This document shows, piece by piece, positions 5,052 to 64,000 of a DNA stretch of 64,000 nucleotides; within the stretch, counting starts at the first letter, position 1, and each line of letters opens with the position of its first letter. Made by a program: the position numbers and the translations under genes. The notes beneath the pieces were generated by a model. That model was not told where the DNA came from and did not search any database. It saw nothing but the letters and a program-made list of their open reading frames with translations. Source of the stretch: the human T2T-CHM13v2.0 reference genome, Homo sapiens; NCBI GenBank assembly GCA_009914755.4, contig CP068257.2, positions 7,648,001 through 7,712,000 on the forward strand, given 5' to 3'.

Positions 5052-6520
<1,469 letters not shown>

Positions 6521-18938: not shown

Positions 18939-19001
18939 AGAACATCAAGACTAGGAAGAAACTGCGTCAATTAACGAGCAAAATAACCAGCTAACATCAT
19001 A

Positions 19002-22816
<3,815 letters not shown>

Positions 22817-31560: not shown

Positions 31561-31739
31561 TTTGCCCAGCACTTGAGTCCAGTTACACAGAGACCCGGAC
31601 TTAATGTATCAGGACTGGTCCCTACCCAGGTGACACAGATGTGGCATTCTGGTTCTTTATTAAATCCTGGTTTCACAGCCTGGGACATTGTGAAAATAAT
31701 GGAGAAATTTCAATAGAGGCCAATTGGTCTATGCTATGA

Positions 31740-32044
<305 letters not shown>

Positions 32045-33965: not shown

Positions 33966-36067
<2,102 letters not shown>

Positions 36068-39000: not shown

Positions 39001-42000
39001 GGAATGGAATGGAATGGAATGGAATGGAATTTAATGGAATGGAATGGAATGGAATGCAATTTAATAGAATGGAATGGAATGGAATGGAATCAAACTGAGT
39101 GGAATGGAATGGAATGGAATGCAATGGAATGTAATGGAGTGGAAGGCATTAGAATCAACTGGAATGGAATGGAGTGGAATGGAATGGAATGGAATGGATA
39201 ATAATGGAATGGAATGGAATCAATCCGGGTGGAATGGAATGGAATGGAATGCAATGGAATGGAATGGAATCAACTCGAGTGGAATGAAATGTAACGTAAT
39301 GTAATGGAATGGAATGGAATGGAATGGAATAGAATGGAATCAATTCGAGTGCAATATAACGGTATAGAATGGAATGGAATGGAATGGAATGGAATGGAAT
39401 GGAATCAACTAGAGTGGAAACGAATTTAAAGGAATGGAATGGAATGGAATGGAATGGAACGGCATGGAATGGAATGGAATGGAGTGGAATCAACCATAGT
39501 GGAATGGAGTGCAATGGACTGTAACGGCATGGAATGGAATGGAATGGAGTGGAATAAACACGAGTGGAATGGAATGGAATGGAACGGACTGGAATGGAAT
39601 GGAATGGAATCAACCCGAGTGCAATGGAATGGAATAGAATGGAATGAAATAAACACGAGTGGTAAGAAATGGAATGGAATGGAATGGAATGGAAGAGAAT
39701 GGATTGGAATCAACTCCAGTGGAAAGGAATGGAATGGAAAGGAATGGAATGGAATGGAAAGGAATGGAATGCAATGGAATGCAATGTTAGGGAATGGAAT
39801 CAACCCGAGTGGAATGGAATGGAATGGAATGGAATGCAATGGAATGGAATGGAATGGAATGGAATGGAATGGAATGGAATCAATTCGAATGCAATGTAAT
39901 GGTATAGAATGGAATGGAATGGAATGGAATGGAATCAACCAGAGTGGAATGGAATGGAAAGGAATGGAATGGAATGGAATGGAATGGAATGTAACAGCAT
40001 GGAATGGAATGGAATGGAGTGGAATCAACCCGAGTGGAATGGAGTGGAATGGACTGTAATGGTCTGGAATGGAATGGAATGGAATGGAGTGGAATAAACA
40101 CAAGTGGAATGGAATGGAATGGAATGGACCGGAATCAACCAGAGTGCAATGGAATGGAATAGAATGGAACGGAATGGAATGGAATGAAAAAAACACGAGT
40201 GGAATGGAATGGAATGGAATGGAATGGAATTCAATGGAATGGAATGGACAGGAATGGAATGGAATGGAGTGGAATGGACTAGAATGGAATGGAAAGGAAT
40301 GAAATCAACCCGATTGGAATGGAATGGAATGCAATGGAATGGAATGGAATCAACTGGAAAGGAATCAAATGGAACGGAATGGAATAGAATGGAATGGATT
40401 GGAATGGAATGGAATGGATTCAACCCGAGTGGAATGGAATGGAATAGAATGGAATAAACACGAGTGGAATGGAATGGAATGGAATGGAATGGAATCAACT
40501 CGAGTGGAATGAAATGTAATGTAATGGAATGGAATGGAATTGAATGGAATAAACACGAGTGGAATGGAATGGAATGGAATGGAATGGAATGGAATGGAAT
40601 AGAATGGAGTCAATTCAAGTGCAATGGAATGGTATAAAATGGAATCGAATGGAATGGAATAAACCAGAGTGGAATGGAATGGAAAGGTATAGAATGGAAT
40701 GGAATGGAATGGAATGGAACGGAATGGAATGGAATGGAATGGAATGTAACGGCATGGAATGGAATGGAATGGAATGGAATGGAATGGAATGGAATGGAAT
40801 GGAACGGCATGCAATGGAATGGAATGGAGTGGAATAAACACGAGTGGAATGGAATGGAATGGAATGGACTGGAATGGAAAGGAATGGAAGAAAATGGAAT
40901 GGAATCAACACGAGTGCAAAGGAATGGAATGGAAAGGAATGGAATGGAATGGAAAGGAATGGAATGCAATGGAATGCAGTGTTATGGAATGGAATCAACC
41001 CGAGTGGAATGGAATGGAATGGAATGGAATGGAGTGGAATGGAATGGAATGGAATGCAATGGAATGGACAGGAATGGAATGGAATGGAATGGAATGGAAT
41101 GGAATAGAATGGAATGGAATAGAGTGGAATGGACTAGAATGGAATGGAATGGAATGAACTCAACCCTATTGGAATGGAATGGAATGCAATGGAATGGAAT
41201 GGAATGGAATCAACTGGTAAGGAAACAAATGGAACAGAATGGAATAGAATGGAATGGATTGTAATGGAATGGAATGGAATCAAACCTAGTAGAATGGAAT
41301 GGAAAGAATGGAATGAACAGGAATGGAATGGAATGGAATGGAATTTAATGGAATGGAATGGAATTTAATAGAATGGAATGGAATGGAATGGAATGGAATG
41401 GAATGGAATGGAATCAACCCGAGTGGAGTGGAATGGAATGGAATGGAAATGAATGGAATAGAATGGAATGGAATGGAACGGAAAGGAATGGAATGAACCC
41501 GAGTGGAATAGAATGGAATGGAATGGAATGGAAAGGCACGGAATGGAATGGAATGGAATGGAATGGAATGGAATGGAATCAACCCGAGTGGAATGGAATG
41601 GAATGGAATCAAACTGAGTGGAATGGAATGGAATGGAATGCAATGGAATGTAATGCAGTGGAAGGCATTAGAATCAACTGGAATGGAATGCAGTGGAATG
41701 GAATGGAATCAACGCCAGTGGAATGGAATGGAATGGAATGGATAATAATAGAATGGAATGGAATAAATCCGGCTGGAATGGAATGGAATGGAATGCAATG
41801 GAATGAAATGGAATCAACTCGAGTGGATTGAAATGTAACGTAATGTAATGGAATGGAATGGAATGGAATGGAATGCAATGGAATGGAATCAATTCGAGTG
41901 CAATATAATGGTATAGAATGGAATGGAATAGAATGGAATGGAATGGAATGGAATCAACCAGAGTGGAATGGAATGGAATGGAATGGAATGGAATGGACTG

Positions 42001-45000
42001 TAACGGCATGGAATGCAATGGAATGGAGTGGAATCAACCCGAGTGGAATGGAATGGAATGGACTAACGGCATGGAACGGAATGGAATGGAGTGGAATCAA
42101 ACCGAGAGGAATGGAATGGAATGGAATGGAATGGAATGGAATGGAATGGAATAGAATGGAATCAATTCGAATGCAATGTAATGGTATAGAATGGAATGGA
42201 ATGGAATGGAATCAACCAGAGTGGAATGGAATGGAATGGAATGGAATGGAATGGAATAGAATGTAATGGAATGGAACGGAATGGAACGGAATGGAATGGA
42301 ATGGAATGGAATGGAATGGAATGGAATGGCATGGAATGGAATGGAATGGAGTGGAATCAACCCGAGTGGAATGGAGTGGAATGGACTGTAATGGCATGGA
42401 ATGGAATGGAATGGAGTGGAATAAACACAAGTGGAATGGAATGGAATGGAATGGACTACAATCAACCAGAGTGCAATGGAATGGAATAGAATGGAATGGA
42501 ATGGAATGGAATGAAATAAACACGAGTGGAATGGAATGGAATGGAATGGAAGAGAATGGAATGGAATCAACTCGAGTGGAAAGGAATGGAATGGAAAGGA
42601 ATGGAATGGAATGGAAAGGAATGGAATGCAATGGAATGCAGTGTTATGTAATGGAATCAACCCGAGTGGAATGGAATGGAATGGAATGGAATGGAATGGA
42701 ATGCAATGGAATGGACAGGAGTGGAATGGAATGGAATTCAATGGAATGGAATGGACAGGAATGGAATGGAATGGAATGGAATGGAGTGGAATGGACTAGA
42801 ATGGAATGGAATGGAATGAAATCAACCCGATTGGAATGGAATGGAATGCAATGGAATGGAATGGAATCAACTGGAAAGGAATCAAATGGAACGGAATGGA
42901 ATGGAATGGAATGGAATGGAATGGAATGGAATGGAATGGAATCAACCCTAGTGGAATGGAATGGAATGAAATCAAACTGAGTGGAATGGAAGGGAATGGA
43001 ATGCAATGGAATGTAATGGAGTGGAAGGCATTTGAATCAACTGGAATGGAATGGAAAGGAATGGAATGGAATGGAATCAACCCCAGTGGAATGGAATGGA
43101 ATGGAATGGATTATAATGGAATGGAATGGAATCAATCTGGGTGGAATGGAATGGAATGGAATGGATTATAATGGAATGGAATGGAATCAATCCGGGTGGA
43201 GTGGAATTGAATGGAATGGATTGGAATGGAATGGAATGGAATGGATTGGAATTCAATGTAATGGAAACAACCCGAGTGGAATGTAATGGAATGGAAAGGC
43301 CTGGAATGTAATGGAATGGATTGGAATCAACCGGATTCCAATGCAAAGGAATGGAATGGAATGGAATGGAAGGGAATGGAATGGAATGGAAAGGAATGGA
43401 ATGAACTGTAATGGAATGGAATGGAATGGAATTTAATGGAATGGAATGGAATCAACCCGAGTGGAGTGGAATGGAATGGAATGGAAATGAATGGAATAGA
43501 ATGGAATGGAATGGAACGGAACGGAATGGAAAGAACCCGAGTGGAATGGATTGTAATGGAAATGAATGGAATAGAAGGGAATGGAATGGAATGGAACGGA
43601 ATGGAACGAACCCGAGTGGAATGGATTGGAATGGAATGGAATGGAAAGGAACGGAATGGAATGGATTGGAATGGAATCAACCCGAGTGGAATGGAATGGA
43701 ATGCAATCAAACTGAGTGGAATGGAAGGGAATGGAATGCAATGGAATGTAATGGAGTGGAAGGCATTTGAATCAAATGGAATGGAATGGAATGGAATGGA
43801 ATGGAATCAACCCCAGTGGAATGGATTGGATGGGAATGGATTATAATGGAATGGAATGGAATCAATCCGAGTGGAATGGAATGGAATGGAATGGATTATA
43901 GTTGAATGGAATGGAATCAATCCTTGTGGAATGGAGTGGAATGGAATGGAATAGAAAGGAATGGAATTCAATGTAATGGAAACAAACCGAGTGGAATGTA
44001 ATGGAATGGAAAGGACTGGAATCTAATGGAATGTATTGGAATCAACCTGATTCCAATGCAACGGAATGGAATGGAATGGAATGCAATGGAAGGGAATGGA
44101 ATGGAATGGAAAAGAATGGAATAAACTGGAATTGAATGGAATGGAATGGAATTTAATGGAATGGAATGGAATGGAATGGAATGGAATGGAATCAACCCGA
44201 GTGAAGTGGAATGGAATGCAATGGAAATGAATGGAATGGAATGGAATGGAATGGAATCAACCCGAGTGGAGTGGAATGGAATGCAATGGAAATGAATGGA
44301 ATAGAATGGAATGGAATGCAACGGAACGGAATGGAATGAACCCGAGTGGAATGGAATGGAATAGAATGGAATGGAAAGGCACGAAATGGAATGGAATGGA
44401 ATGGAATGGAATGGAATGGAATGGAATCAACCCGAGTGGAATGGAATGGAATTGAATGGAATCAAACTGAGTGGAATGGAATGGAATGGAATGGAATGGA
44501 ATGGAATGGAGTGGAAGGCATTAGAATCACCTGGAATGGAATGGAATGGAATGGAATGGAATGGAATGGAATCAACCCGAGTGGAATGGAATGGAATGGA
44601 ATCAAACTGAGTGGAAAGGAATGGAATGGAATGGAATGGAATGGAATGGAATGGAATCAACCACAGTGGAATGGAATGGAATGGAACAGATTATAATAGA
44701 ATGGAATGGAATCAATCCGGGTGGAATGGAATGGAATGGAATGGAATGGAATGGAATGGAATGGAATCAACTCGAGTGGAATGAAATGTAACTTGATGGA
44801 ATGGAATGGAATGGAATGGAATGGAATGGAATGGAATGGAATACAATGGAATCAATTCGAGTGCCATGTAATGGTATAGAATGGAATGGAATGGAATGGA
44901 ATGAAATGGAATGGAATGGAATGGAATGGAATCATCCAGAGTGGAATGGAATGGAATGGAATGGAATGGAATGGAATATATTGGAATGGAATGGAATGGA

Positions 45001-48000
45001 ATGGAATGGAATATATTGGAATGGAATGCAACGGAATCAACTGGAATGGAATGGAATGGAATGGAATGGATTATAATGGAATGGAATGGAATCAATCCGG
45101 GTGGAATGGAATGGAATGGAATGGAATGGAATGGAATTCAATGTAATGGAAACAAACCGAGAGGAATGTAATGGAATGGAAAGGACTGGAATGTAATGGA
45201 ATGGATTGGAATCAAACCGATTCCAATGCAACGGAATGGAATGCAATGGAAAGGAAAGAAATCAACCCGAATGGAATGGATTGGAATAGAGTGGAGTGGA
45301 ATGGAATAGAATGGCATGGAATGCAATGAAATCAACTAGAATGGAATGGAATGGAATGGAATGAAAAGGAATGGAATGGAATGGAATGGAATGGAATGGA
45401 ATGGAAAGGAATGGAGTGGAATGGAATGCAATGGAATGAAATCAACCCGATTGGAATGGAATGGAATGCAATGGAATGGAATGGAATCAACTGGAAAGGA
45501 ATCAAATGGAACGGAATCGAATGGAATGGAATGGAATGGAATGGAATGGAATGGAACGGAACGGAATCAACCTCTCTGGAATGGAACGGAATGGAATGGA
45601 TTATAATGGAATGGAATGGAATCAATCCGGGTGGAATGGAATGGAATGCAATGGAATGGACAGGAATGGAATGGAATGGAATTCAATGGAATGGAATGGA
45701 CAGGAATGCAATGGAATGTAATGCAATGGAATGGAATGGAGTGGAATGGACTAGAATGGAATGGAATGGAATGAAATCAACCCGATTGGAATGGAATAGA
45801 ATGCAATGGAATGGAATGGAATCAACTGGAAAGGAATCAAATGGAACGGAATGGAATAGAATGGAATGGATTGGAATGGAAAGGAATGGATTCAACCCGA
45901 GTGGAATGGAATGGAATAGAACGGAATAAACACGAGTGGAATGGAATGGAATGGAATGGAATGGAATGGAATGGAATCAACTCGAGTGGAATGAAATGTA
46001 ATGTAATGGAATGGAATGGAATTGAATGGAATAAACACGAGTGGAATGGAATGGAATGGAATGGAATAGAATGGAGTCAATTCAAGTGCAATGGAATGGT
46101 ATACAATGGAATCGAATGGAATGGAATCAACCAGAGTGGAATGGAATGGAAAGGAATGGAATGGAATGGAACGGAACGGAATGGAATGGAATGGAATGGA
46201 ATGGAACGGCATGGAATGGAATGGAATGGAATGGAATGGAATGGAATAGAATATAACGGCATGCAATGGAATGGAATGGAGTGGATTCAACCCGAGTGGA
46301 ATGGAGTGGATTGAACTGTAACGGCATGGAATGGAATGGAATGGAGTGGAATAAACAAGAGTGGAATGGAATGGAATAGAATGGAATGGAATGGAATGGA
46401 GTGAAATAAACTCGAGTGGAATGGAATGGAATGGAATAGAATGGAATGGAATGGAAAGGAATGGAAGAGAATGGAATGGAATCAACTCGAGTGGAAAGGA
46501 ATGGAATGGAAAGGAATGGAATGGAATGGAAAGGAATGGAATGCAATGAAATGCAGTGTTATGGAATGGAATCAACCCGAGTGGAATGGAATGGAATGGA
46601 ATGGAATGGAATGGAATGGAATGGACAGGAATGGAATGGAATGGAATGGAATGGAATGGAATGGAATGGAATGGAATGGAGTGGAATGGACTAGAATGGA
46701 ATGGAATGGAATGAAAACAACCCGATGGGAATGGAATGGAATGCAATGGAATGGAATGGAATCAACTGGAAAGGAATCAAATGGAACGGAATGGAATTGA
46801 ATGGAATGGATTGGAATGGAATGGAATGGAATCAAACCTAGTAGAATGGAATGGAAAGAATGGAATGTACAGGAATGGAATGGAATGGAATGGAATTTAA
46901 TGGAATGGAATGGAATGGAATGGAATTTAATAGAATGGAATGGAATGGAATGGAACAGAATGGAATGGAATCAACCCGATTGGAGTCAAATGAAATGGAA
47001 TGGAAATGAATGGAATAGAATGGAATGGAATGGAACGGAAAGGAATGGCATGAACCCGAGTGGAATGGAATGGAATGGAATGGAATGGAATGGAATGGAA
47101 TGGAATGGAATCGAAAGGCACGGAATGGAATGGAATGGAATGGAATGGAATGGAATCAACCCGAGTGGAATGGAATGGAATGGAATCAAACTGAGTGGAA
47201 TGGAATGGAATGGAATGCAATGGAATGTAATGGAGTGGAAGGCATTAGAATCAACTGGAATGGAATGGAGTGGAATGGAATGGAATCAACGCCAGTGGAA
47301 CGGAATGGAATGGAATGGAATGGATAATAATGGAATGGAATGGAATCAATCCGGGTGGAATGGAATGGAATGGAATGCAATGGAATGGAATGGAATCAAC
47401 TCGAGTGGAATGAAATGTAACGTAATGTAATGTAATGGAATGGAATGGAATGGAATAGAATGGAATCAATTTGAGTGTAATATAACGGTATAGAATGGAA
47501 TGGAATGGAATGGAATCGAATGGAATCAACTAGAGTGGAAACGAATGGAAAGGAATGGAATGGAATGGAATGGAGTGTAATGGAATGGAATGGAATGGAA
47601 TGGAATGGAATGGAATGGAATGGCATGGAATGGAATGGAGTGGAATCAACCAGAGTGGAATGGAGTGCAATGGACTGTAACGGCATGGAATGGAATGGAA
47701 TGGAGTGGAATAAACACGAGTGGAATGGAATGGAATGGAATGGACTGGAATGGAATGGAATGTAATCAACCCGAGTGCAATGGAATGGAATAGAATGGAA
47801 TGAAACAAACACGAGTGGAAAGGAATGGAATGGAATGGAATGGAATGGAAGAGAATGGAATGGAATCAACTCGAGTGGAAAGGAATGGAATGGAAAGGAA
47901 TGGAATGGAATGGAAAGGAATGGAATGCAATGGAATGCAATGTTATGGAATGGAATCAACCCGAGTTGAATGGAATGTAATGGAATGGAATGCAATGGAA

Positions 48001-51000
48001 TGGAATGGAATCAACTCGAGTGGAATGAAATGTAATGTAATGTAATGGAATGGAATGGAATGGAATGGAATGGAATAGAATGGAATCATTTCGAATGCAA
48101 TGTAATGGTATAGAATGGAATGGAATGGAATGGAATCAACCAGAGTGGAATGGAATGGAAAGGAATGGAATGGAATGGAATGGAATGGAATGTAACGGCA
48201 TGGAATGGAATGGAATGGAGTGGAATCAACCCGAGTGGAATGGAGTGGAATGGACTGTAATGGAATGGAATGGAATAGAGTGGAATAAACACAAGTGGAA
48301 AGGAATGGAATGGAATCAAACTGAGTGGAATGGAATGGAATGGAAAGCAATGGAATGTAATGCAGTGGAAGGCATTAGAATCAACTGGAATGGAATGGAG
48401 TGGAATGGAATGTAATCAACGCCAGTGGAATGGATTTTAATAGAATGGATAATAATGGAATGGAAGGGAATCAATCCGGGTGGAATGGAATGGAATGGAA
48501 TGCAATGGAATGAAATGAAATCAACTCGAGTGGAATGAAATGTAACGTAATGTAATGGAATGGAATGGAATGGAATGGAATAGAATGGAATCAATTCGAG
48601 TGCAATATAATGGTATAGAATGGAATGGAATGGAATGGAATGGAATGTAACGGCATGGAATGGAATGGAATGGAATGGAATGGAATGGCATGCAATGGAA
48701 TGGAATGGAGTGGAATAAACACGAGTGGAATGGAATGGAATAGAATGGACTGGAATGGAAAGGAATGGAAGAGAATGGAATGGAATCAATACGAGTGGAA
48801 AGGAATGGAATGGAAAGGAATGGAGTGGAATGGAAAGGAATGTAATGCAATGGAATGCAGTGTTATGGAATGGAATCAACCCGAGTGGAATGGAATGGAA
48901 TGGAATGGAATGGAGTGGAATGGAATGGAATGGAATGCAATGGAATGGACAGGAATGGAATGGAATGGAATGGAACGGAATGGAATGGAATGGAATGGAG
49001 TGGAATGGACTAGAATGGAATGGAATGGAAGGAAATCAACCCTATTGGAATGGAATGGAATGCAATGGAATGGAATGGAATCAACTGGTAAGGAAACAAA
49101 TGGAACAGAATGGAATAGAATGGAATGGATTGTAATGGAATGGAATGGAATCAAACCTAGTAGAATGGAATGGAAAGAATGGAATGAACAGGAATGGAAT
49201 GGAATGGAATGGAATTTAATGGAATGGAATGGAATTTAATAGAATGGAATGGAATGGAATGGAATGGAATGGAATGGAATGGAATGGAATCAACACGAGT
49301 GGAGTGGAATGGAATGGAATGGAAATGAATGGAATAGAATGGAATGGAATGGAACGGAAAGGAATGGAATGAACCCGAGTGGAATGGAATGGAATGGAAT
49401 GGAATGGAATGGAATGGAAAGGCACGGAATGGAATGGAATGGAATGGAATGGAATGGAATGGAATGGAATGGAATCAACCCGAGTGGAATGGAATGGAAT
49501 GGAATCAAACTGAGTGGAATGGAATGGAATGGAATGCAATGGAATGTAATGCAGTGGAAGGCATTAGAATCAACTGGAATGGAATGCAGTGGAATGGAAT
49601 GGAATCAACGCCAGTGGAATGGAATGGAATGGAATGGAATGGATAATAATAGAATGGAATGGAATAAATCCGGCTGGAATGGAATGGAATGGAATGCAAT
49701 GGAATGAAATGGAATCAACTCGAGTGGAATGAAATGTAACGTAATGTAATGGAATGGAATGGAATGGAATGGAATAGAATGGAATCAATTCGAGTGCAAT
49801 ATAATGGTATAGAATGGAATGGAATAGAATGGAATGGAATGGAATGGAATCAACCAGAGTGGAATGGAATGGAATGGAATGGAATGGAATGGAATGGAAT
49901 GGAATGGAACGGCATGGAATGGAATGGAATGGAATGGAATGGAATGGAATGGAATATAACGGCATGCAATGGAATGGAATGGAGTGGATTCAACCCGAGT
50001 GGAATGGAGTGGATTGGACTGTAACGGCATGGAATGGAATGGAATGGAGTGGAATAAACACGAGTAGAATGGAATGGAATAGAATGGAATGGAATGGAAT
50101 GGAGTGAAATAAACTCGAGTGGAATGGAATGGAATGGAATAGAATGGAATGGAATGGAAAGGAATGGAAGAGAATGGAATGGAATCAACTCGAGTGGAAA
50201 GGAATGGAATGGAAAGGAATGGAATGGAATGGAAAGGAATGGAATGCAATGGAATGCAGTGTTATGGAATGGAATCAACCCGAGTGGAATGGAATGGAAT
50301 GGAATGGAATGGAATGGACAGGAATGGAATGGAATGGAATGGAATGGAATGGAATGGAATGGAATGGAATGCAATGGAGTGGAATGGACTAGAATGGAAT
50401 GGAATGGAATGAAATCAACCCGATGGGAATGGAATGGAATGCAATGGAATGGAATGGAATCAACTGGAAAGGAATCAAATGGAACGGAATGGAATTGAAT
50501 GGAATGGATTGGAATGGAATGGAATGGAATCAAACCTAGTAGAATGGAATGGAAAGAATGGAATGTACAGGAATGGAATGGAATGGAATGGAATTTAATG
50601 GAATGGAATGGAATGGAATGGAATTTAATAGAATGGAATGGAATGGAATGGAATGGAATGGAATGGAATGGAATCAACCCGATTGGAGTCAAATGAAATG
50701 GAATGGAAATGAATGGAATAGAATGGAATGGAATGGAACGGAAAGGAATGGCATGAACCCGAGTGGAATGGAATGGAATGGAATGGAATGGAATGGAATG
50801 GAATGGAATGGAATCGAAAGGCACGGAATGGAATGGAATGGAATGGAATGGAATGGAATCAACCCGAATGGAATGGAAAGGAATGGAATCAAACTGAGTG
50901 GAATGGAATGGAATGGAATGCAATGGAATGTAATGGAGTGGAAGGCATTAGAATCAACTGGAATGGAATGGAGTGGAATTGAATGGAATCAACGCCAGTT

Positions 51001-54000
51001 GAATGGAATGGAATGGAATGGAATGGATAATAATGGAATGGAATGGAATCAATCCGGGTGGAATGGAATGGAATGGAATGCAATGGAATGGAATGGAATC
51101 AACTCGAGTGGAATGAAATGAAATGTAACGTAATGTAATGTAATGTAATGGAATGGAATGGAATAGAATGGAATCAATTCGAGTGTAATATAACGGTATA
51201 GAATGGAATGGAATGGAATGGAATCAACTAGAGTGGAAACGAATGGAAAGGAATGGAATGGAATGGAATGGAGTGTAATGGAATGGAATGGAATGGAATG
51301 GAATGGAATGGCATGGAATGGAATGGAATGGAATGGAGTGGAATCAACCAGAGTGGAATGGAGTGCAATGGACTGTAACGGCATGGAATGGAATGGAATG
51401 GAGTGGAATAAACACGAGTGGAATGGAATGGAATGGAATGGACTGGAATGGAATGGAATGGAATCAACACGAGTGAAATGGAATGGAATAGAATGGAATG
51501 AAATAAACACGAGTGGAAAGGAACGGAATGGAATGGAATGGAAGAGAATGGAATGGAATCAACTCGAGTGGAAAGGAATGGAATGGAAAGGAATGGAATG
51601 GAATGGAATGGAAAGGAATGGAATGCAATGGAATGCAATGTTATGGAATGGAATCAACCCGAGTTGAATGGAATGGAATGGAATGGAATGCAATGGAATG
51701 GAATGGAATCAACTCGAGTGGAATGAAATGTAATGTAATGTAATGTAATGGAATGGAATGGAATGGAATGGAATAGAATGGAATCACTTCGAATGCAATG
51801 TAATGGTATAGAATGGAATGGAATGGAATGGAATCAACCAGAGTGGAATGGAATGGAAAGCAATGGAAAGGAATGGAATGGAATGGAATGTAACGGCATG
51901 GAATGGAATGGAATGGAGTGGAATCAACCCGAGTGGAATGGAGTGGAATGGACTGTAATGGAATGGAATGGAATGGAGTGGAATAAACACAAGTGGAAAG
52001 GAATGGAATGGAATCAAACTGAGTGGAATGGAATGGAATGGAAAGCAATGGAATGTAATGCAGTGGAAGGCATTAGAATCAACTGGAATGGAATGGAGTG
52101 GAATGGAATGGAATCAACGCCAGTGGAATGGATTGGAATGGAATGGATAATAATGGAATGGAAGGGAATCAATCCGGGTGGAATGGAATGGAATGGAATG
52201 CAATGGAATGAAATGGAATAAACTCGAGTGGAATGAAATGTAACGTAATGTAATGTAATGGAATGGAATGGAATGGAATAGAATGGAATCAATTCGAGTG
52301 CAATATAATGGTATAGAATGGAATGGAATGGAATGGAATGGAATGGAATCAACCAGAGTGGAATGGAATGGAAAGGAATGGAATGGAATGGAATGGAAAG
52401 GAATGGAATGCAATGGAATGCAATGTTATGGAATGGAATCAACCCGAGTTGAATGGAATGGAATGGAATGGAATGCAATGGAATGGAATGGAATCAACTC
52501 GAGTGGAATGAAATGTAATGTAATGTAATGTAATGGAATGGAATGGAATGGAATGGAATAGAATGGAATCACTTCGAATGCAATGTAATGGTATAGAATG
52601 GAATGGAATGGAATGGAATCAACCAGAGTGGAATGGAATGGAAAGCAATGGAAAGGAATGGAATGGAATGGAATGTAACGGCATGGAATGGAATGGAATG
52701 GAGTGGAATCAACCCGAGTGGAATGGAGTGGAATGGACTGTAATGGAATGGAATGGAATGGAGTGGAATAAACACAAGTGGAAAGGAATGGAATGGAATC
52801 AAACTGAGTGGAATGGAATGGAATGGAAAGCAATGGAATGTAATGCAGTGGAAGGCATTAGAATCAACTGGAATGGAATGGAGTGGAATGGAATGGAATC
52901 AACGCCAGTGGAATGGATTGGAATGGAATGGATAATAATGGAATGGAAGGGAATCAATCCGGGTGGAATGGAATGGAATGGAATGCAATGGAATGAAATG
53001 GAATAAACTCGAGTGGAATGAAATGTAACGTAATGTAATGTAATGGAATGGAATGGAATGGAATAGAATGGAATCAATTCGAGTGCAATATAATGGTATA
53101 GAATGGAATGGAATGGAATGGAATGGAATGGAATCAACCAGAGTGGAATGGAATGGAAAGGAATGGAATGGAATGGAATGGAAAGGAATGGAATGCAATG
53201 GAATGCAATGTTATGGAATGGAATCAACCCGAGTTGAATGGAATGGAATGGAATGGAATGCAATGGAATGGAATGGAATCAACTCGAGTGGAATGAAATG
53301 TAATGTAATGTAATGTAATGGAATGGAATGGAATGGAATGGAATAGAATGGAATCACTTCGAATGCAATGTAATGGTATAGAATGGAATGGAATGGAATG
53401 GAATCAACCAGAGTGGAATGGAATGGAAAGCAATGGAAAGGAATGGAATGGAATGGAATGTAACGGCATGGAATGGAATGGAATGGAGTGGAATCAACCC
53501 GAGTGGAATGGAGTGGAATGGACTGTAATGGAATGGAATGGAATGGAGTGGAATAAACACAAGTGGAAAGGAATGGAATGGAATCAAACTGAGTGGAATG
53601 GAATGGAATGGAAAGCAATGGAATGTAATGCAGTGGAAGGCATTAGAATCAACTGGAATGGAATGGAGTGGAATGGAATGGAATCAACGCCAGTGGAATG
53701 GATTGGAATGGAATGGATAATAATGGAATGGAAGGGAATCAATCCGGGTGGAATGGAATGGAATGGAATGCAATGGAATGAAATGGAATAAACTCGAGTG
53801 GAATGAAATGTAACGTAATGTAATGTAATGGAATGGAATGGAATGGAATAGAATGGAATCAATTCGAGTGCAATATAATGGTATAGAATGGAATGGAATG
53901 GAATGGAATGGAATGGAATCAACCAGAGTGGAATGGAATGGAAAGGAATGGAATGGAATGGAATGGAAAGGAATGGAATGCAATGGAATGCAATGTTATG

Positions 54001-57000
54001 GAATGGAATCAACCCGAGTTGAATGGAATGGAATGGAATGGAATGCAATGGAATGGAATGGAATCAACTCGAGTGGAATGAAATGTAATGTAATGTAATG
54101 TAATGGAATGGAATGGAATGGAATGGAATAGAATGGAATCACTTCGAATGCAATGTAATGGTATAGAATGGAATGGAATGGAATGGAATCAACCAGAGTG
54201 GAATGGAATGGAAAGCAATGGAAAGGAATGGAATGGAATGGAATGTAACGGCATGGAATGGAATGGAATGGAGTGGAATCAACCCGAGTGGAATGGAGTG
54301 GAATGGACTGTAATGGAATGGAATGGAATGGAGTGGAATAAACACAAGTGGAAAGGAATGGAATGGAATCAAACTGAGTGGAATGGAATGGAATGGAAAG
54401 CAATGGAATGTAATGCAGTGGAAGGCATTAGAATCAACTGGAATGGAATGGAGTGGAATGGAATGGAATCAAAGCCAGTGGAATGGATTGGAATGGAATG
54501 GATAATAATGGAATGGAAGGGAATCAATCCGGGTGGAATGGAATGGAATGGAATGCAATGGAATGAAATGGAATAAACTCGAGTGGAATGAAATGTAACG
54601 TAATGTAATGGAATGGAATGGAATGGAATGGAATAGAATGGAATCAATTCGAGTGCAATATAATGGTATAGAATGGAATGGAATGGAATGGAATGGAATG
54701 GAATCAACCAGAGTGGAATGGAATGGAAAGGAATGGAATGGAATGGAATGGAATGGAATGGAATGGAATGGAACGGCATGGAATGGAATGGAATGGAGTG
54801 GAATCAACCCGAGTGGAATGGAGTGGAATGGACTGTAATGGCATGGAATGGAATGGAATGGAATGGAGTGGAATAAACACAAGTGGAATGGAATGGAATG
54901 GAATGGACTGGAATCTACCAGAGTGCAATGGAATGGAATAGAATGGAATGGAATTGAATGGAATGAAATAAACACGAGCGGAATGGAATGGAATGGAATG
55001 GAATGGAGTGGAATGGACTAGAATGGAATGGAATGGAATGAAATCAACCCGATTGGAATGGAATGGAATGCAATGGAATGGAATGGAATCAATTGGAAAG
55101 GAATCAAATGGAACGGAATGGAATGGAATGGAATGGAATGGAATGGAATGGAATGGAACGGAATGGAATCAACCTCTGTGGAATGGAATGGAATGGAATG
55201 GATTATAATGGAATGGAATGGAATCAATCCGGGTGGAATGGAATGGAATGGAACGGAATGGAATGCAATGGAATGGACAGGAATGGAATGGAATGGAATT
55301 CAATGGAATGGAATGGACAGGAATGCAATGGAATGTAATGGAATGGAATGGAATGGAGTGGAATGGACTAGAATGGAATGGAATGGAATGAAATCAACCC
55401 GATTGGAATGGAATGGAATGCAATGGAATGGAATGGAATCAACTGGAAAAGAATCAAATGGAACGGAATGGAATAGAATGGAATGGATTGGAATGGAAGG
55501 GAATGGATTCAACCCGAGTGGAATGGAATGGAATAGAACGGAATAAACACGAGTGGAATGGAATGGAATGGAATGGAATGGAATGGAATGGAATGGAATC
55601 AACTCGAGTGGAATGAAATGTAATGTAATGGAATGGAATGGAAGTGAATGGAATAAACACGAGTGGAATGGAATGGAATGGAATGGAATAGAATGGAGTC
55701 AATTCAAGTGCAATGGAATGGTATACAATGGAATCGAATGGAATGGAATCAACCAGAGTGGAATGGAATGGAAAGGAATGGAATGGAATGGAACGGAACG
55801 GAATGGAATGGAATGGAATGGAATGTAACGGCATGGAATGGAATGGAATGGAATGGAATGGAATGGAATGGAATGGAATATAACGGCATGCAATGGAATG
55901 GAATGGAGTGGATTCAACCCGAGTGGAATGGAGTGGATTGGACTGTAACGGCATGGAATGGAATGGAATGGAGTGAAATAAACTCGAGTGGAATGGAATG
56001 GAATGGAATAGAATGGAATGGAATTGAAAGGAATGGAAGAGAATGGAATGGAATCAACTCGAGTGGAAAGGAATGGATTGGAAAGGAATGGAATGGAATG
56101 GAAAGGAATGGAATGCAATGGAATGCAGTGTTATGGAATGGAATCAACCCGAGTGGAATGGAATGGAACGGAAAGGAATGGAATGCAATGGAATGCAATG
56201 TTAGGGAATGGAATCAACCCGAGTGGAATGGAATGGAATGGAATGGAATGCAATGGAATGGAATGGAATGGAATGGAATGGAATAAAATGGAATCAATTC
56301 GAATGCAATGTAATGGTATAGAATGGAATGGAATGGAATGGAATGGAATCAACCACAGTGGAATGGAATGGAAAGGAATGGAATGGAATGGAATGGAATG
56401 GAATGGAATGGAATGGAATGTAACAGCATGGAATGGAATGGAATGGAGTGGAATCAACCCGAGTGGAATGGAGTGGAATGGACTGTAATGGTCTGGAATG
56501 GAATGGAATGGAATGGAGTGGAATAAACACAAGTGGAATGGAATGGAATGGAATGGACTGGAATCAACCAGAGTGCAATGGAATGGAATAGAATGGAATG
56601 GAATGGAATGGAATGAAAAAAACACGAGTGGAATGGAATGGAATGGAATGGAATGGAATTCAATGGAATGGAATGGACAGGAATGGAATGGAATGGAATG
56701 GAATGGCGTGGAATGGACTAGAATGGAATGGAATGGAATGAAATCAACCCGATTGGAATGGAATGGAATGCAATGGAATGGAATGGAATCAACTGGAAAG
56801 GAATTAAATGGAACGGAATGGAATAGAATGGAATGGATTGGAATGGAATGGAATGGATTCAACCCGAGTGGAATGGAATGGAATAGAATGGAATAAACAC
56901 GAGTGGAATGGAATGGAATGGAATGGAATGGAATGGAATGGAATGGAATGGAATCAACTCGAGTGGAATGAAATGGAATGGAATGGAATGGAATGGAATT

Positions 57001-60000
57001 GAATGGAATAAACACGAGTGGAATGGAATGGAATGGAATGGAATGGAATGGAATGGAATGGAATAGAATGGAGTCAATTCAAGTGCAATGGAATGGTATA
57101 AAATGGAATCGAATGGAATGGAATCAACCAGAGTGGAATGGAATGGAAAGGTATAGAATGGAATGGAATGGAATGGAATGGAACGGAATGGAATGGAATG
57201 GAATGGAATGTAACGGCATGGAATGGAATGGAATGGAATGGAATGGAATGGAATGGAATGGAATGGCATGCAATGGAATGGAATGGAGTGGAATAAACAC
57301 GAGTGGAATGGAATGGAATGGAATGGACTGGAATGGAAAGGAATGGAAGAGAATGGAATGGAATCAACACGAGTGGAAAGGAATGGAATGGAAAGGAATG
57401 GAATGGAATGGAAAGGAATGTAATGCAATGGAATGCAGTGTTATGGAATGGAATCAACCCGAGTGGAATGGAATGGAATGGAATGGAATGGAGTGGAATG
57501 GAATGGAATGGAATGCAATGGAATGGACAGGAATGGAATGGAATGGAAAGGAATGGAATGGAGTGGAATGGACTAGAATGAAATGGAATGGAATGAAATC
57601 AACCCTATTGGAATGGAATGGAATGCAATGGAATGGAATGGAATCAACTGGTAAGGAAACAAATGAACAGAATGGAATAGAATGGAATGGATTGTAATGG
57701 AATGGAATGGAATCAAACCTAGTAGAATGGAATGGAAAGAATGGAATGAACAGGAATGGAATGGAATGGAATGGAATTTAATGGAATGCAATGGAATTTA
57801 ATAGAATGGAATGGAATGGAATGGATTATAATGGAATGGAATGGAATCAATCTGGGTGGAATGGAATGGAATGGAATGGAATGGAATGGAATGGACTGTA
57901 ACGGCATGGAATGCAATGGAATGGAGTGGAATCAACCCGAGTGGAATGGAATGGAATGGACTGTAACGGCATGGAACGGAATGGAATGGAGTGGAATCAA
58001 ACCGAGAGGAATGGAATGGAATGGAATGGAATGGAATGGAATGGAATAGAATGGAATCAATTCGAATGCAATGTAATGGTATAGAATGGAATGGAATGGA
58101 ATGGAATCAACCAGAGTGGAATGGAATGGAATGGAATGCAATGGAATAGAATGTAATGGAATGGAACGGAATGGAACGGAATGGAATGGAATGGAATGGA
58201 ATGGAATGGAATGGCATGGAATGGAATGGAATGGAGTGGAATCAACCCGAGTGGAATGGAGTGGAATGGACTGTAATGGCATGGAATGGAATGGAATGGA
58301 GTGGAATAAACACAAGTGGAATGGAATGGAATGGAATGGACTACAATCAACCAGAGTGCAATGGAATGGAATAGAATGGAATGGAATGGAATGGAATGAA
58401 ATAAACACGAGTGGAATGGAATGGAATGGAATGGAAGAGAATGGAATGGAATCAACTCGAGTGGAAAGGAATGGAATGGAAAGGAATGGAATGGAATGGA
58501 ATGGAACGGAATGGAATGGAATGGAATGGAATGTAACGGCATGGAATGGAATGGAATGGAATGGAATGGAATGGAATGGAATGGAATGGAATATAACGGC
58601 ATGCAATGGAATGGAATGGAGTGGATTCAACCAGAGTGGAATGGAGTGGATTGGACCGTAACGGCATGGAATGGAATGGAATGGAGTGGAATAAACACGA
58701 GTGGAATGGAATGGAATGGAATGGACTGGAATCAACCCGAGTGCAATGGAATGGAATGGAATGGAATGGAATGGAATGGAGTGAAATAAACTCGAGTGGA
58801 ATGGAATGGAATGAAATAGAATGGAATGGAATGGAAAGGAATGGAAGAGAATGGAATGGAATCAACTCGAGTGGAAAGGAATGGAATGGAAAGGAATGGA
58901 ATGGAATGGAAAGGAATGGAATGCAATGGAATGCAGTGTTATGGAATGGAATCAACCCGAGTGGAATGGAATGGAATGGAAAGGAATGGAATGCAATGGA
59001 ATGCAATGTTAGGGAATGGAATCAACCCGAGTGGAATGGAATGGAATGGAATGGAATGCAATGGAATGGAATGGAATGGAATGGAATGGAATAGAATGGA
59101 ATCAATTCGAATGCAATGTAATGGTATAGAATGGAATGGAATGGAATGGAATGGAATCAACCAGAGTGGAATGGAATGGAAAGGAATGGAATGGAATGGA
59201 ATGGAATGGAAAGGAATGGAATGGAATGGAATGGAATGGAATGGAATGGAATGGAATGTAACAGCATGGAATGGAATGGAATGGAGTGGAATCAACCCGA
59301 GTGGAATGGAGTGGAATGGACTGTAATGGTCTGGAATGGAATGGAGTGGAATAAACACAAGTGGAATGGAATGGAATGGAATGGACTGGAATCAACTAGA
59401 GTGCAATGGAATGGAATAGAATGGAATGGAATGGAATGGAATGAAAAAAACACGAGTGGAATGGAATGGAATGGAATGGAATTCAATGGAATGGAATGGA
59501 CAGGAATGGAATGGAATGGAATGGAATGGAGTGCAATGGACTAGAATGGAATGGAATGGAATGAAATCAACCCGATTGGAATGGAATGGAATGCAATGGA
59601 ATGGAATGGAATCAACTGGAAAGGAATCAAATGGAACGGAATGGAATAGAATGGAATGGATTGGAATGGAATGGAATGGATTCAACCCGAGTGGAATGGA
59701 ATGGAATAGAATGGAATAAACACGAGTGGAATGGAATGGAATGGAATGGAATGGAATGGAATCAACTCGAGTGGAATGAAATGGAATGGAATGGAATGGA
59801 ATGGAATTGAATGGAATAAACACGAGTGGAATGGAATGGAATGGAATGGAATGGAATGGAATGGAATGGAATAGAATGGAGTCAATTCAAGTGCAATGGA
59901 ATGGTATAAAATGGAATCGAATGGAATGGAATCAACCAGAGTGGAATGGAATGGAAAGGTATAGAATGGAATGGAATGGAATGGAATGGAACGGAATGGA

Positions 60001-63000
60001 ATGGAATGGAATGGAATGTAACGGCATGGAATGGAATGGAATGGAATGGAATGGAATGGAATGGAATGGCATGCAATGGAATGGAATGGAGTGGAATAAA
60101 CACGAGTGGAATGGAATGGAATGGAATGGACTGGAATGGAAAGGAATGGAAGAGAATGGAATGGAATCAACACGAGTGGAAAGGAATGGAATGGAAAGGA
60201 ATGGAATGGAATGGAAAGGAATGTAATGCAATGGAATGCAGTGTTATGGAATGGAATCAACCCGAGTGGAATGGAATGGAATGGAATGGAATGGAGTGGA
60301 ATGGAGTGGAATGGAATGTAATGGAATGGACAGGAATGGAATGGAATGGAATGGAATGGAATGGAATGGAGTGGAATGGACTAGAATGGAATGGAATGGA
60401 ATGAAATCAACCCTATTGGAATGGAATGGAATGCAATGGAATGGAATGGAATCAACTGGTAAGGAAACAAATGGAACAGAATGGAATAGAATGGAATGGA
60501 TTGTAATGGAATGGAATGGAATCAAACCTAGTAGAATGGAATGGAAAGAATGGAATGAACAGGAATGGAATGGAATGGAATGGAATTTAATGGAATGGAA
60601 TGGATTATAATGGAATGGAATGGAATCAATCTGGGTGGAATGGAATGGAATGGAATGGAATGGAATGGACTGTAACGGCATGGAATGCAATGGAATGGAG
60701 TGGAATCAACCCGAGTGGAATGGAATGGAATGGACTGTAACGGCATGGAACGGAATGGAATGGAGTGGAATCAAACCGTGAGGAATGGAATGGAATGGAA
60801 TGGAATGGAATGGAATGGAATGGAATAGAATGGAATCAATTCGAATGCAATATAATGGTATAGAATGGAATGGAATGGCATGGAATCAACCAGAGTGGAA
60901 TGGAATGGAATGGAATGGAATGGAATGGAATGGAATAGAATGTAATGGAATGGAACGGAATGGAACGGAATGGAATAGAATGTAATGGAATGGAACGGAA
61001 CGGAACGGAATGGAATGGAATGGAATGGAATGGAATGGAATGGAATGGAATGGAATGGAATGGCATGGAATGGAATGGAATGGAGTGGAATCAACCCGAG
61101 TGGAATGGAGTGGAATGGACTGTAATGGCATGGAATGGAATGGAATGGAGTGGAATAAACACAAGTGGAATGGAATGGAATGGAATGGACTACAATCAAC
61201 CAGAGTGCAATGGAATGGAATAGAATGGAATGGAATGGAATGGAATGAAATAAACACGAGTGGAATGGAATGGAATGGAATGGAAGAGAATGGAATGGAA
61301 TCAACTTGAGTGGAAAGGAATGGAATGGAAAGGAATGGAATGGAATGGAAAGGAATGGAATGCAATGGAATGCAGTGTTATGGAATGGAATCAACCCGAG
61401 TGGAATGGAATGGAATGGAATGGAATGCAATGGAATGGACAGGAATGGAATGGAATGGAATGGAATGGAATGGAATGGAATGGAATGGAGTGGAATGGAC
61501 TAGAATGGAATGGAATGGAATGAAATCAACCCGATTGGAATGGAATGGAATGCAATGGAATGGAATGGAATCAACTGGAAAGGAATCAAATGGAACGGAA
61601 TGGAATGGAATGGAATGGAATGGAATGGAATCAACCCTAGTGGAATGGAATGGAATGAAATCAAACTGAGTGGAATGGAAGGGAATGGAATGCAATGGAA
61701 TGTAATGGAGTGGAAGGCATTTGAATCAACTGGAATGGAATGGAAAGGAATGGAATGGAATGGAATCAACCCCAGTGGAATGGAATGGAATCGAATGGAT
61801 TATAATGGAATGGAATGGAATCAATCTGGGTGGAATGGAATGGAATGGAATGCAATGTAATGGAATGGAATGGACTGTAACGGCATGGAATGCAATGGAA
61901 TGGAGTGGAATCAACCCGAGTGGAATGGAATGGAATGGACTGTAACGGCATGGAACGGAATGGAATGGAGTGGAATCAAACCGAGAGGAATGGAATGGAA
62001 TGGAATGGAATGGAATGGAATGGAATGGAATAGAATGGAATCAATTCGAATGCAATGTAATGGTATAGAATGGAATGGAATGGAATGGAATCAACCAGAG
62101 TGGAATGGAATGGAATGGAATGGAATGGAATAGAATGTAATGGAATGGAACGGAATGGAACGGAATGGAATGGAATGGAATGGAATGGAATGGAATGGAA
62201 TGGAATGGAATGGCATGGAATGGAATGGAATGGAGTGGAATCAACCCGAGTGGAATGGAGTGGAATGGACTGTAATGGCATGGAATGGAATGGAATGGAG
62301 TGGAATAAACACAAGTGGAATGGAATGGAATGGAATGGACTACAATCAACCAGAGTGCAATGGAATGGAATAGAATGGAATGGAATGGAATGGAATGAAA
62401 TAAACACGAGTGGAATGGAATGGAATGGAATGGAAGAGAATGGAATGGAATCAACTCGAGTGGAAAGGAATGGAATGGAAAGGAATGGAATGGAATGGAA
62501 AGGAATGGAATGCAATGGAATGCAGTGTTATGGAATGGAATCAACCCGAGTGGAATGGAATGGAATGGAATGGAATGCAATGGAATGGACAGGAGTGGAA
62601 TGGAATGGAATTCAATGGAATGGAATGGACAGGAATGGAATGGAATGGAATGGAATGGAATGGAATGGAGTGGAATGGACTAGAATGGAATGGAATGGAA
62701 TGAAATCAACCCGATTGGAATGGAATGGAATGCAATGGAATGGAATGGAATCAACTGGAAAGGAATCAAATGGAACGGAATGGAATAGAATGGAATGGAT
62801 TGGAATGGAAAGGAATGGATTCAACCCGAGTGGAATGGAATGGAATAGAACGGAATAAACACGAGTGGAATGGAATGGAATGGAATGGAATGGAATGGAA
62901 TGGAATGGAATGGAATCAACTCGAGTGGAATGCAATGTAATGTAATGGAATGGAATGGAATTGAATGGAATAAACACGAGTGGAATGGAATGGAATGGAA

Positions 63001-64000
63001 TAGAATGGAGTCAATTCAAGTGCAATGGAATGGTATACAATGGAATCGAATGGAATGGAATCAACCAGAGTGGAATGGAATGGAAAGGAATGGAATGGAA
63101 TGGAACGGAACGGAATGGAATGGAATGGAATGGAATGTAACGGCATGGAATGGAATGGAATGGAATGGAATGGAATGGAATGGAATATAACGGCATGCAA
63201 TGGAATGGAATGGAGTGGATTCAACCCGAGTGGAATGGAGTGGATTGGACTGTAACGGCATGGAATGGAATGGAATGGAGTGGAATAAACACGAGTGGAA
63301 TGGAATGGAATGGAATGGACTGGAATCAACCCGAGTGCAATGGAATGGAATGGAATGGAATGGAGTGAAATAAACTCGAGTGGAATGGAATGGAATGGAA
63401 TAGAATGGAATGGAATGGAAAGGAATGGAAGAGAATGGAATGGAATCAACTCGAGTGGAAAGGAATGGAATGGGAAGGAATGGAATGGAATGGAAAGGAA
63501 TGGAATACAATGGAATTCAGTGTTATGGAATGGAATCAACCCGAGTGGAATGGAATGGAATGGAATGGAATGGAATGGAATGGAATGGATTGGAATGGAA
63601 TGGACAGGAATGGAATGGAATGGAATGGAATGGAACGGAATGGACAGGAATAGAATGGAATGGAATGGAATGGAGTGGAATGGACTAGAATGGAATGGAC
63701 TAGAATGGAATGGAATGGAATGAAATCAACCCGATGGGAATGGAATGGAATACAATGGAATGGAATGGAATCAACTGGAAAGGAATCAAATGGAACGGAA
63801 TGGAATTGAATGGAATGGATTGGAATGGAATGGAATGGAATCAAACCTAGTAGAATGGAATGGAAAGAATGGAATGTACAGGAATGGAATGGAATGGAAT
63901 GGAATTTAACGGAATGGAATGGAATGGAATGGAATTTAATAGAATGGAATGGAGTGGAATGGAATGGAATGGAATGGAATGGAATGGAATGGAATCAACC
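36068..64000 (+). repeat. Human satellite III (HSat3, classical satellite 3): (GGAAT)n pentamer array with interspersed CAACCCGAGT-type 10-mers; ~28 kb, single orientation, continues beyond the window end
   Basis: Near-continuous GGAATGGAATGGAAT with the diagnostic HSat3 motif GGAATCAACCCGAGTGGAATGG (HinfI GAATC sites) recurring every ~50-150 bp. I found no Alu or L1 sequence inside. The abundant HSat2-type CATTCGATGAT 23/26-mers are absent. The window reaches 64,000 still in the array. Confidence 0.92.
51575..54745 (+). repeat. Young higher-order tandem array inside HSat3: 785-bp unit, ~4.0 copies, >99% identical
   Basis: The marker CAACCCGAGTTGAATGG recurs at 51656, 52441, 53226 and 54011, exactly 785 bp apart. 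ORF-track translations at 51748, 52533, 53318 and 54103 are identical over 157 aa apart from one substitution in the last copy. Flanking copies of related sequence (e.g. 47951-48640) are single-copy and more diverged. Confidence 0.85.

What the first reader, a model, noticed from the sequence alone, without database searches (positions are those of the whole stretch)
51575..54745. Near-identical 785-bp x 4 tandem amplification embedded in diverged HSat3
Background HSat3 monomers and higher-order blocks in this window differ from one another by several percent or much more. Yet four consecutive 785-bp units (starts 51656, 52441, 53226, 54011) are essentially identical: their six-frame translations are identical over 135-157 aa with a single substitution in the final copy. 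This implies a very recent local expansion (unequal crossing-over or replication slippage) within the array. Alternatively it could be a collapsed or duplicated assembly artifact. A related single-copy, more diverged version of the unit exists at ~47.95-48.64 kb, which suggests the ancestral state was one copy.
Basis: seen in the sequence. Interest (0 to 1): 0.6.

Follow-up and report, generated by a model that had tools for sequence, protein, structure and literature searches.

The report
Young 785-bp fourfold repeat in HSat3
A 785-base stretch of human-type satellite 3 DNA was copied head to tail into four almost identical copies very recently, which is the ordinary, already described way these satellite arrays grow, not a new kind of element.

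Summary
Window 51575-54753 (3179 bp) is a perfect-register tandem of 4.05 x 785 bp. Copies 1-3 are 100% identical. Copy 4 differs at two bases (54473 and 54611). The surrounding (GGAAT)n array (36069-64000) has a median nearest-paralogue identity of about 90%. A single diverged copy lies at 47877-48647 (97.9%). It belongs to an older 2.5-kb duplication (46157-48647 and 49860-52345, 98.4%), so one copy was the ancestral state. The two ends of the tandem share a 39-bp identical pentamer stretch, as expected for homology-guided unequal exchange or replication slippage. At 54611, copy 4 keeps the G found in most paralogues checked, including the closest ones, while copies 1-3 share a derived T. 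So the unit duplicated once, mutated, and the mutated copy was then re-amplified: at least two rounds. That ordered pattern argues against an assembly artefact, but no reads were available to test this. Published T2T work already describes "nested tandem repeats" in HSat2/3 that expand hyper-locally by unequal exchange. This is a clean small example of that known process. The ORFs are only pentamer translations, and I found no sign of function. Interest is low.

The parts
36069..64000 (+). HSat3-type (GGAAT)n satellite array. Its edge abuts an old L1 ORF2 fragment.
   Evidence: About 220-240 GGAAT per 2 kb from 36 kb onward and almost none before. Junction read. TRF period 5, 74% matches. 69 exact CAACCCGAGT and 183 relaxed decamers, with 96% of spacings multiples of 5.
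51575..52359 (+). 785-bp unit, copy 1
   Evidence: 100% identical to copies 2 and 3
52360..53144 (+). 785-bp unit, copy 2
   Evidence: 100% identical
53145..53929 (+). 785-bp unit, copy 3
   Evidence: 100% identical
53930..54714 (+). 785-bp unit, copy 4. It differs at 54473 (A, private and derived) and at 54611 (G, the inferred ancestral state).
   Evidence: 99.745% to the unit. States polarised against A, L001, L002, L003 and older paralogues in the window.
54715..54753 (+). 39-bp start of a fifth period. It equals 51575-51613 (GGAATGGAATGGAAAGGAATGGAATGGAATGGAATGGAA) and is the stretch within which the exchange must have occurred.
   Evidence: Periodicity runs to 54753. Sequence read.
52350..52416 (+). 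Junction-specific 67-mer (end of X2 joined to start of unit). It recurs at 53135 and 53920 only.
   Evidence: 3 exact matches in the window. The right end of the tract (54705) differs by 2 bases.
47877..48647 (+). Single-copy paralogue A of the unit
   Evidence: 97.9%, 16 mismatches in 771 bp, ungapped. Alignment.
46157..48647 (+). Older duplication block A
   Evidence: Pairs with 49860-52345: 2431 matches, 40 mismatches, 6 indel events, 98.4%
49860..52345 (+). Older duplication block B. Its last 771 bp are copy 1 of the amplified unit.
54575..54900 (+). X2 of copy 4 plus the right flank. It is an older sub-repeat, roughly 94% identical (my count from the alignment) to X1+Y inside the unit (51705-52010).
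   Evidence: Alignment

Best explanation
This is a real, evolutionarily very young, stepwise tandem amplification of a 785-bp segment inside a heterogeneous HSat3 array. It is the birth stage of a 'nested tandem repeat'. The ancestral locus held one copy of the segment, as paralogue A and the unrelated contig L003 still do. Two identical 39-bp pentamer stretches lay 785 bp apart in direct orientation: GGAATGGAATGGAAAGGAATGGAATGGAATGGAATGGAA at the start of the segment and just after its end. They allowed misaligned homologous exchange (unequal sister-chromatid or interhomologue crossing-over) or replication template slippage, which gave two copies. The left copy then acquired G>T at unit position 682. 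The right copy acquired C>A at position 544 at some point after the first duplication. Further unequal exchanges or slippage re-amplified the T-bearing copy to three, and no mutation has occurred since. Shown here: the anatomy, the identities, the junction homology, the single-copy paralogues and the direction of the two substitutions. Inferred: which molecular mechanism acted (exchange or slippage) and the absolute age. The amplification needs no function. It is neutral satellite turnover.
For: Perfect 785-bp periodicity over 51575-54472, with two substitutions in the last copy. The tract is unique in the window, where nearest-paralogue identity has a median of 90%. The left flank plus unit is collinear with paralogue A at 98%. 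In A, L001 and L003, X2 runs into a different sequence and not back into the start of the unit. A 39-bp identical stretch lies at both ends of the tract. The junction 67-mer occurs only at the three internal junctions. At site 682, G is found in A, L001, L002, L003 (position 1470) and the older copies at 39.3, 41.8 and 49.7 kb, while copies 1-3 have T. At site 544, A, L001, L003 and copies 1-3 have C, and copy 4 has A. The array holds other local duplications of various periods and ages: 1150, 2319, about 2808 and about 3700 bp at 94-99%. So local duplication is this array's normal mode of change. [quoted passage not shown]
Against: No read-level or population data were available, so the copy number is unverified. 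A T at site 682 also exists in more distant paralogues (47412, and L003 position 347). The T in copies 1-3 could therefore have come from gene conversion instead of point mutation, or the G in copy 4 could be a conversion. That would weaken the two-step inference but not the amplification itself. The junction could not be found in any independent data set. Those collections hold very little human satellite DNA, so this negative result carries little weight.
Confidence: 0.8

Rival explanations
1. Assembly artefact. The true haplotype has fewer or more copies, and the assembler mis-resolved a short tandem, giving a false duplication or a partial collapse.
For: Three copies are 100% identical, which is also what a false duplication would give. 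No reads were available to check. No independent sequence containing the junction was found.
Against: Copy 4 differs at two sites, and one of them is the state shared with the closest paralogues. That is what real descent predicts, not random error. The tract is only 3.2 kb, so it would lie inside single long reads if the assembly was built from them. The tandem has clean flanks collinear with paralogue A on the left and with an older sub-repeat on the right.
Confidence: 0.08
2. An older four-copy tandem array that was recently homogenised by gene conversion, not recently amplified.
For: Gene conversion is known in satellites. T at site 682 exists in other paralogues that could act as donors.
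Against: Identity is uniform over the whole 2.9 kb, junctions included, with no mosaic tracts. The close paralogues A (98%), L003 and L001 do not show X2 joined back to the start of the unit. Amplification must therefore post-date the A/B split anyway. No other 785-bp periodicity exists in the window.
Confidence: 0.07
3. The amplification was selected because the unit carries a functional element, such as a protein-coding ORF, a structured RNA or a factor-binding module.
For: ORFs of 99-157 aa occur on both strands.
Against: The ORFs are translations of the stop-free pentamer (MEWNG / IPFHS), and similar ORFs lie just outside the tandem in the same listing. There was no exact gene on record and no HMMER hit at E<=1e-20. 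The unit's composition is ordinary for the array (80 GGAAT, 11 decamer-like motifs by the looser pattern, 39% GC). I did not scan the satellite part against Rfam or Pfam, so this is not a complete test.
Confidence: 0.02

Closest known systems
Nested tandem repeats (NTRs) of HSat2/HSat3 (Altemose et al., T2T-CHM13 centromere maps, 10.1101/2021.07.12.452052)
   Same: A multi-hundred-bp to kb unit built of diverged CATTC/GGAAT pentamers and repeated head to tail. Copies are far more alike than the pentamer-level background. Periodicity is local to part of an array ('expanding hyper-locally').
   Different: There are only 4.05 copies (3.2 kb), not an array-scale NTR. It is an incipient or abortive NTR. 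Whether 785 bp matches any catalogued NTR period could not be checked.
DYZ1 (HSat3 on Yq12), a ~3.6-kb NTR (10.1101/2022.12.01.518724)
   Same: HSat3-derived. Evolves by iterative tandem duplication and unequal exchange. This window also holds a pair of blocks with a ~3.7-kb lag.
   Different: DYZ1 has thousands of units that are mostly >98% identical. Here the 3.7-kb lag links just two partial blocks separated by a 1.2-kb spacer, and no 3.6-kb periodicity runs through the array. Nothing indicates a Y-chromosome origin.
Alpha-satellite higher-order-repeat expansion (layered expansion model)
   Same: A young, homogeneous block is embedded in older, more diverged satellite, with nested layers of decreasing age: ~86%, 94.6%, 98.4% and 100%.
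   Different: The satellite family is different, there is no fixed monomer comparable to 171 bp, and there is no link to kinetochore function.
Tandem duplication by non-allelic homologous recombination or replication slippage (general structural-variant mechanism; my own knowledge)
   Same: Direct orientation, clean junctions and an identical 39-bp stretch at both breakpoints.
   Different: In a pentamer satellite, short junction homology is available almost everywhere, so it does not discriminate strongly between mechanisms.

Membership tests
Human satellite 3 (HSat3) | Diverged tandem pentamer GGAAT/ATTCC | tested here: met
   TRF period 5, 74% matches over 36068-63995. 57% of bases lie in exact GGAAT, all on the + strand.
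Human satellite 3 (HSat3) | Interspersed ~10-bp CAACCCGA(G/A)T-type motif, the complement of A(T/C)TCGGGTTG. That this motif defines the family is from my own knowledge of the classical satellite 3 description. | tested here: met
   69 exact CAACCCGAGT and 183 CAANNNGAGT. Median spacing 105 bp, and 96% of spacings are multiples of 5.
Human satellite 3 (HSat3) | Location in hominoid pericentromeric, acrocentric or Yq12 heterochromatin, and subfamily-specific 24-mers (A1-6, B1-5) | not testable with these tools
   No human reference or subfamily k-mer lists were available. The flank holds Alu-like and L1 sequences, which fits a primate genome.
Nested tandem repeat / higher-order repeat | Head-to-tail copies of a composite unit that are much more alike than the sub-repeats within the unit | tested here: met
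   Copies are 99.7-100% identical. The internal sub-repeats X1+Y and X2+flank are roughly 94% alike, and generic HSat3 matches are about 80%.
Nested tandem repeat / higher-order repeat | Array-scale repetition (tens to thousands of units) that dominates a region | tested here: not met
   Only 4.05 copies. No 785-bp periodicity elsewhere in 28 kb of array.
Homology-mediated tandem duplication (unequal exchange or slippage) | Direct repeats at both breakpoints, and junction equal to end of unit joined to start of unit with nothing inserted | tested here: met
   39-bp identical stretch at 51575-51613 and 54715-54753. The three junctions are identical.
Homology-mediated tandem duplication (unequal exchange or slippage) | Copy-number polymorphism or reciprocal deletion alleles in the population | not testable with these tools
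   The junction 67-mer has no match in metagenome or prokaryote genome collections. No human assemblies are held.
DYZ1 (Y-specific HSat3 NTR, ~3.6 kb) | Regular ~3.6-kb periodicity with mostly >98% identity across many units | tested here: not met
   Only one pair of partial blocks at lag 3698-3703. The rest of the array is a mosaic of other lags.

The most novel reading that the evidence does not exclude
The pentamer run and CAACCAGAGT segment at the end of sub-repeat X2 is a preferred, recurrently used exchange site. Three independent paralogues (A, B and contig L003) lose their 96.5-98% identity at this point and continue into different flanks, and the L001-to-unit match (about 99%) ends there too. 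The right breakpoint of the 785-bp amplification lies 15-50 bp away. If so, the window would catch both a sequence-determined recombination hotspot and the birth of a new nested tandem repeat at the edge of an HSat3 array.
Probability: 0.1. Interest if true: 0.4.

Novelty: new member of a known kind. Interest (0 to 1): 0.13.

Why it matters
It matters little on its own. It is a tidy small example of how HSat3 arrays change: nested local duplications of decreasing age, at about 86%, 94.6%, 98.4% and 100% identity. One informative site orders the steps of the youngest event. In practice the 67-bp junction sequence is a specific marker that could be used to genotype copy number across human long-read assemblies. 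That would give a small data point on the rate of unequal exchange in pericentromeric satellites. If the copy number proves wrong, it would flag a local assembly error.

Tried and rejected
1. TRF cannot see the 785-bp period under the dominant 5-bp period, with either the tool's 500-bp limit or my own run at maximum period 2000. I replaced it with lag analysis.

2. A gapped BLAST painting of 400-bp windows timed out. I replaced it with an ungapped all-lag scan.

3. I searched for the junction in independent data. An exact 67-mer scan of metagenome contigs and genome contigs gave 0 hits. Exact look-ups of the junction-spanning 154-aa ORF and the internal 157-aa ORF gave nothing on record. An HMMER search with the junction ORF gave no hit at E<=1e-20. 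These collections are essentially non-human, so the negatives say little.

4. A unit-internal 37-mer recovered three short metagenome contigs, L001-L003. They are paralogues, 92-97% identical overall with a ~99% core in L001, and are not this locus. I used them only as outgroups.

5. Rfam on the flank (1-37 kb) found nothing at gathering thresholds.

6. I considered and rejected a DYZ1-type regular 3.6-kb NTR, because no array-wide periodicity exists.

7. I considered and rejected the idea that the 785-bp period is a pre-existing NTR of the array. The tandem unit-like matches near 41.2-42.7 kb are only 81-86% identical, close to the generic ~80% HSat3 background.

8. I considered and rejected a coding function for the ORFs, which are pentamer translations.
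Full report
**Context.** The window has two parts. Bases 1-36068 are ordinary interspersed-repeat DNA of primate type. This part holds an Alu-like translation at 5348-5716, a near full-length L1 at about 18.3-22.2 kb, and an older L1 ORF2 fragment that runs right up to 36068. From 36069 to the end of the window the + strand is a diverged (GGAAT)n satellite. It has about 220-240 exact GGAAT per 2 kb and essentially no ATTCC. TRF gives period 5 with 74% matches. There are 69 exact CAACCCGAGT decamers and 183 relaxed ones, and 96% of their spacings are multiples of 5. From my own knowledge, these are the classical hallmarks of human satellite 3. Chromosome and subfamily could not be determined with the tools at hand.

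**The observation.** Comparing the sequence with itself at lag 785 gives a perfect match from 51575 to 54472. Inside the tract there are only two mismatches, 53688->54473 and 53826->54611, and the periodicity ends at 54753. The tract is therefore 3179 bp, or 4.05 units.
- BLAST of the unit gives three copies at 100% (51575, 52360, 53145) and a fourth at 99.745% (53930).
- One further copy lies at 47877-48647, at 97.9%.
- Every other match is 90% or lower, and generic HSat3-to-HSat3 alignments are about 80%.
They are simply MEWNG / IPFHS translations of a pentamer that has no stop codons.

An all-lag scan shows that 400-bp windows elsewhere in the array have a best off-diagonal identity with median 90.4% and a 5-95% range of 80.7-98.0%. 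Fewer than 1% of windows reach 99%, and none does so for more than a few hundred bases. No other lag up to 15 kb gives a comparable tract.

**Anatomy and history.** The diverged copy near 48 kb does not stand alone. Block A (46157-48647) and block B (49860-52345) are collinear, with 2431 matches, 40 mismatches and six indel events, giving 98.4%. Their lag is 3698-3703 bp. The last 771 bp of block B are copy 1 of the amplified unit.

Older, unit-like copies at 85-87% lie at 46753, 49099 and 50451, spaced 1.1-1.35 kb apart. A 94.6% pair lies at lag 2319. The region is therefore a set of nested duplications of decreasing age: about 86%, 94.6%, 98.4% and 100%. Other parts of the array show their own local duplications at lags of 1150 and about 2808 bp.

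Inside the unit there is an older sub-repeat with a period of about 510 bp. X1+Y (51705-52010) matches X2 plus the sequence to the right of the tandem (54575-54900) at roughly 94% by my count from the alignment, with indels of 5 and 10 bp. This shows that the right flank is the original neighbour of X2. The join between the end of X2 and the start of the unit is therefore the new junction.

That 67-bp junction sequence occurs only at the three internal junctions. In paralogue A and in two human-type metagenome contigs recovered with a unit-internal 37-mer (L003 and L001), X2 runs on into other sequence and not back into the start of the unit. One copy was the ancestral state.

**Mechanism.** The first 39 bp of the unit (51575-51613, GGAATGGAATGGAAAGGAATGGAATGGAATGGAATGGAA) recur exactly after the fourth copy (54715-54753). 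Before amplification, the locus therefore had two identical 39-bp stretches 785 bp apart in direct orientation. That is the substrate expected for unequal homologous exchange or for replication slippage or template switching.

The two variable sites order the events.
- At 54611, copy 4 has G. So do A, L001, L002, the orthologous position of L003, and the older copies at 39.3, 41.8 and 49.7 kb. Copies 1-3 share T.
- At 54473, copy 4 has a private A, whereas A, L001, L003 and copies 1-3 have C.

The most parsimonious history is: a first duplication; then G>T in the left copy; then re-amplification of that copy to three, with no mutation since. The C>A change in the right copy happened at some time after the first duplication.

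One caveat applies. T also occurs at this site in more distant paralogues (47412, and L003 position 347). Gene conversion could therefore have introduced the T instead of a point mutation.

Rough ages, using an assumed 0.5e-9 substitutions per bp per year, are as follows.

| Comparison | Estimate |
|---|---|
| Three identical copies | Under about 2.5 Myr (95% bound) |
| Copy 4 versus copies 1-3 | About 2.5 Myr |
| A versus B | About 20 Myr |

With only 0-2 differences, and with unknown mutation and conversion rates in satellites, these are order-of-magnitude figures only. Which mechanism acted (exchange or slippage) is inferred, not shown.

**Rival explanations.**
- *Assembly artefact.* This cannot be excluded without reads. 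However, one of the two differences in copy 4 is the ancestral state, which real descent predicts and error does not. The tract is also short enough to lie inside single long reads.
- *Homogenisation of an old four-copy array.* This is disfavoured by the uniform identity across junctions and by the single-copy state of the close paralogues.
- *Functional selection.* Nothing supports this. There is no gene on record and no HMMER-significant relative for the ORFs, and the unit's composition is typical of the array. The satellite part itself was not scanned against Rfam or Pfam.

**Comparison with what is known.** The T2T centromere study names the long composite units of HSat2/3 'nested tandem repeats'. 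[quoted passage not shown] The present tract works like an NTR at its birth. It meets the head-to-tail and homogeneity criteria but not the array-scale criterion, with only four copies. It is not DYZ1-like, since no regular 3.6-kb periodicity exists.

**Unexplained.** A, B and L003 all lose their high mutual identity at the same place, and the L001-to-unit match ends there too. This is the pentamer run after GTATAGAAT at the end of X2 (A 48647 / B 52345). From there each continues into a different flank. The right breakpoint of the 785-bp amplification lies only 15-50 bp further on. It may be a coincidence, alignment ambiguity in an indel-prone run, or a recurrently used exchange site. I could not decide between these. 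Also, A and B are separated by a 1.2-kb spacer and have non-homologous right flanks. They are therefore not an intact simple tandem duplication.

**Verdict.** The finding is an ordinary instance of a known process, so interest is low.

Noticed in passing
window 35193-36068 / 36069: The satellite array begins abruptly at 36069, directly against a decayed L1 ORF2 (reverse-transcriptase) fragment. So the window contains an edge of the HSat3 array.
   Followed up: partly
window 18279-22208 (+): Near full-length L1. ORF1-like 219 aa and ORF2 endonuclease/RT pieces of 302, 460 and 145 aa, interrupted by stops. An Alu-like translation lies at 5348-5716 (-).
   Followed up: no
window 14000-16000 and 30000-32000: GC-richer patches (52% and 49%, against about 38-43% around them) in the non-satellite flank. 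Nature not examined.
   Followed up: no
window 55937-57817 and 58745-60626: A second local duplication in the array at lag 2803-2808 bp, in segments of 95.5-99% identity. It is a two-copy repeat of about 2.8 kb, older than the 785-bp one.
   Followed up: partly
window 60951-61519 and 62101-62669; 42222-42703 and 62106-62587: Short blocks at 96.8% (lag 1150, with a 400-bp stretch at 99.5%) and 98.3% (dispersed, 19.9 kb apart, with a 400-bp stretch at 99.75%). These are the only other places that come near the identity of the 785-bp copies.
   Followed up: partly
window 45632-46262 and 55249-55884: About 630 bp at about 98.5% identity lies just upstream of block A and again about 500 bp downstream of the amplified tract. 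It brackets the whole A...B region and hints at a still larger, older repeat of about 7.3 kb before the amplification.
   Followed up: no
window 48647 / 52345; L003 (rc) about position 1572; L001 about position 657: Paralogues A, B and L003 end their high mutual identity at the same pentamer run at the end of sub-repeat X2, and the L001-to-unit match also ends there. This is next to the right breakpoint of the amplification and may be a recurrent exchange site.
   Followed up: partly
L001-L003 (ENA metagenome contigs OOKD01005476.1, OONO01005601.1, OOQC01006812.1): Metagenome assemblies contain 1.3-1.7-kb contigs of HSat3 that are 92-97% identical to this array. A 417-bp stretch of L001 is about 99% identical to the unit. 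This is presumably human DNA in the samples.
   Followed up: partly
satellite-wide (36069-64000): The indels seen between paralogues in the alignments I read are multiples of 5 bp, and 96% of decamer spacings are multiples of 5. The pentamer register is kept through the duplications.
   Followed up: partly
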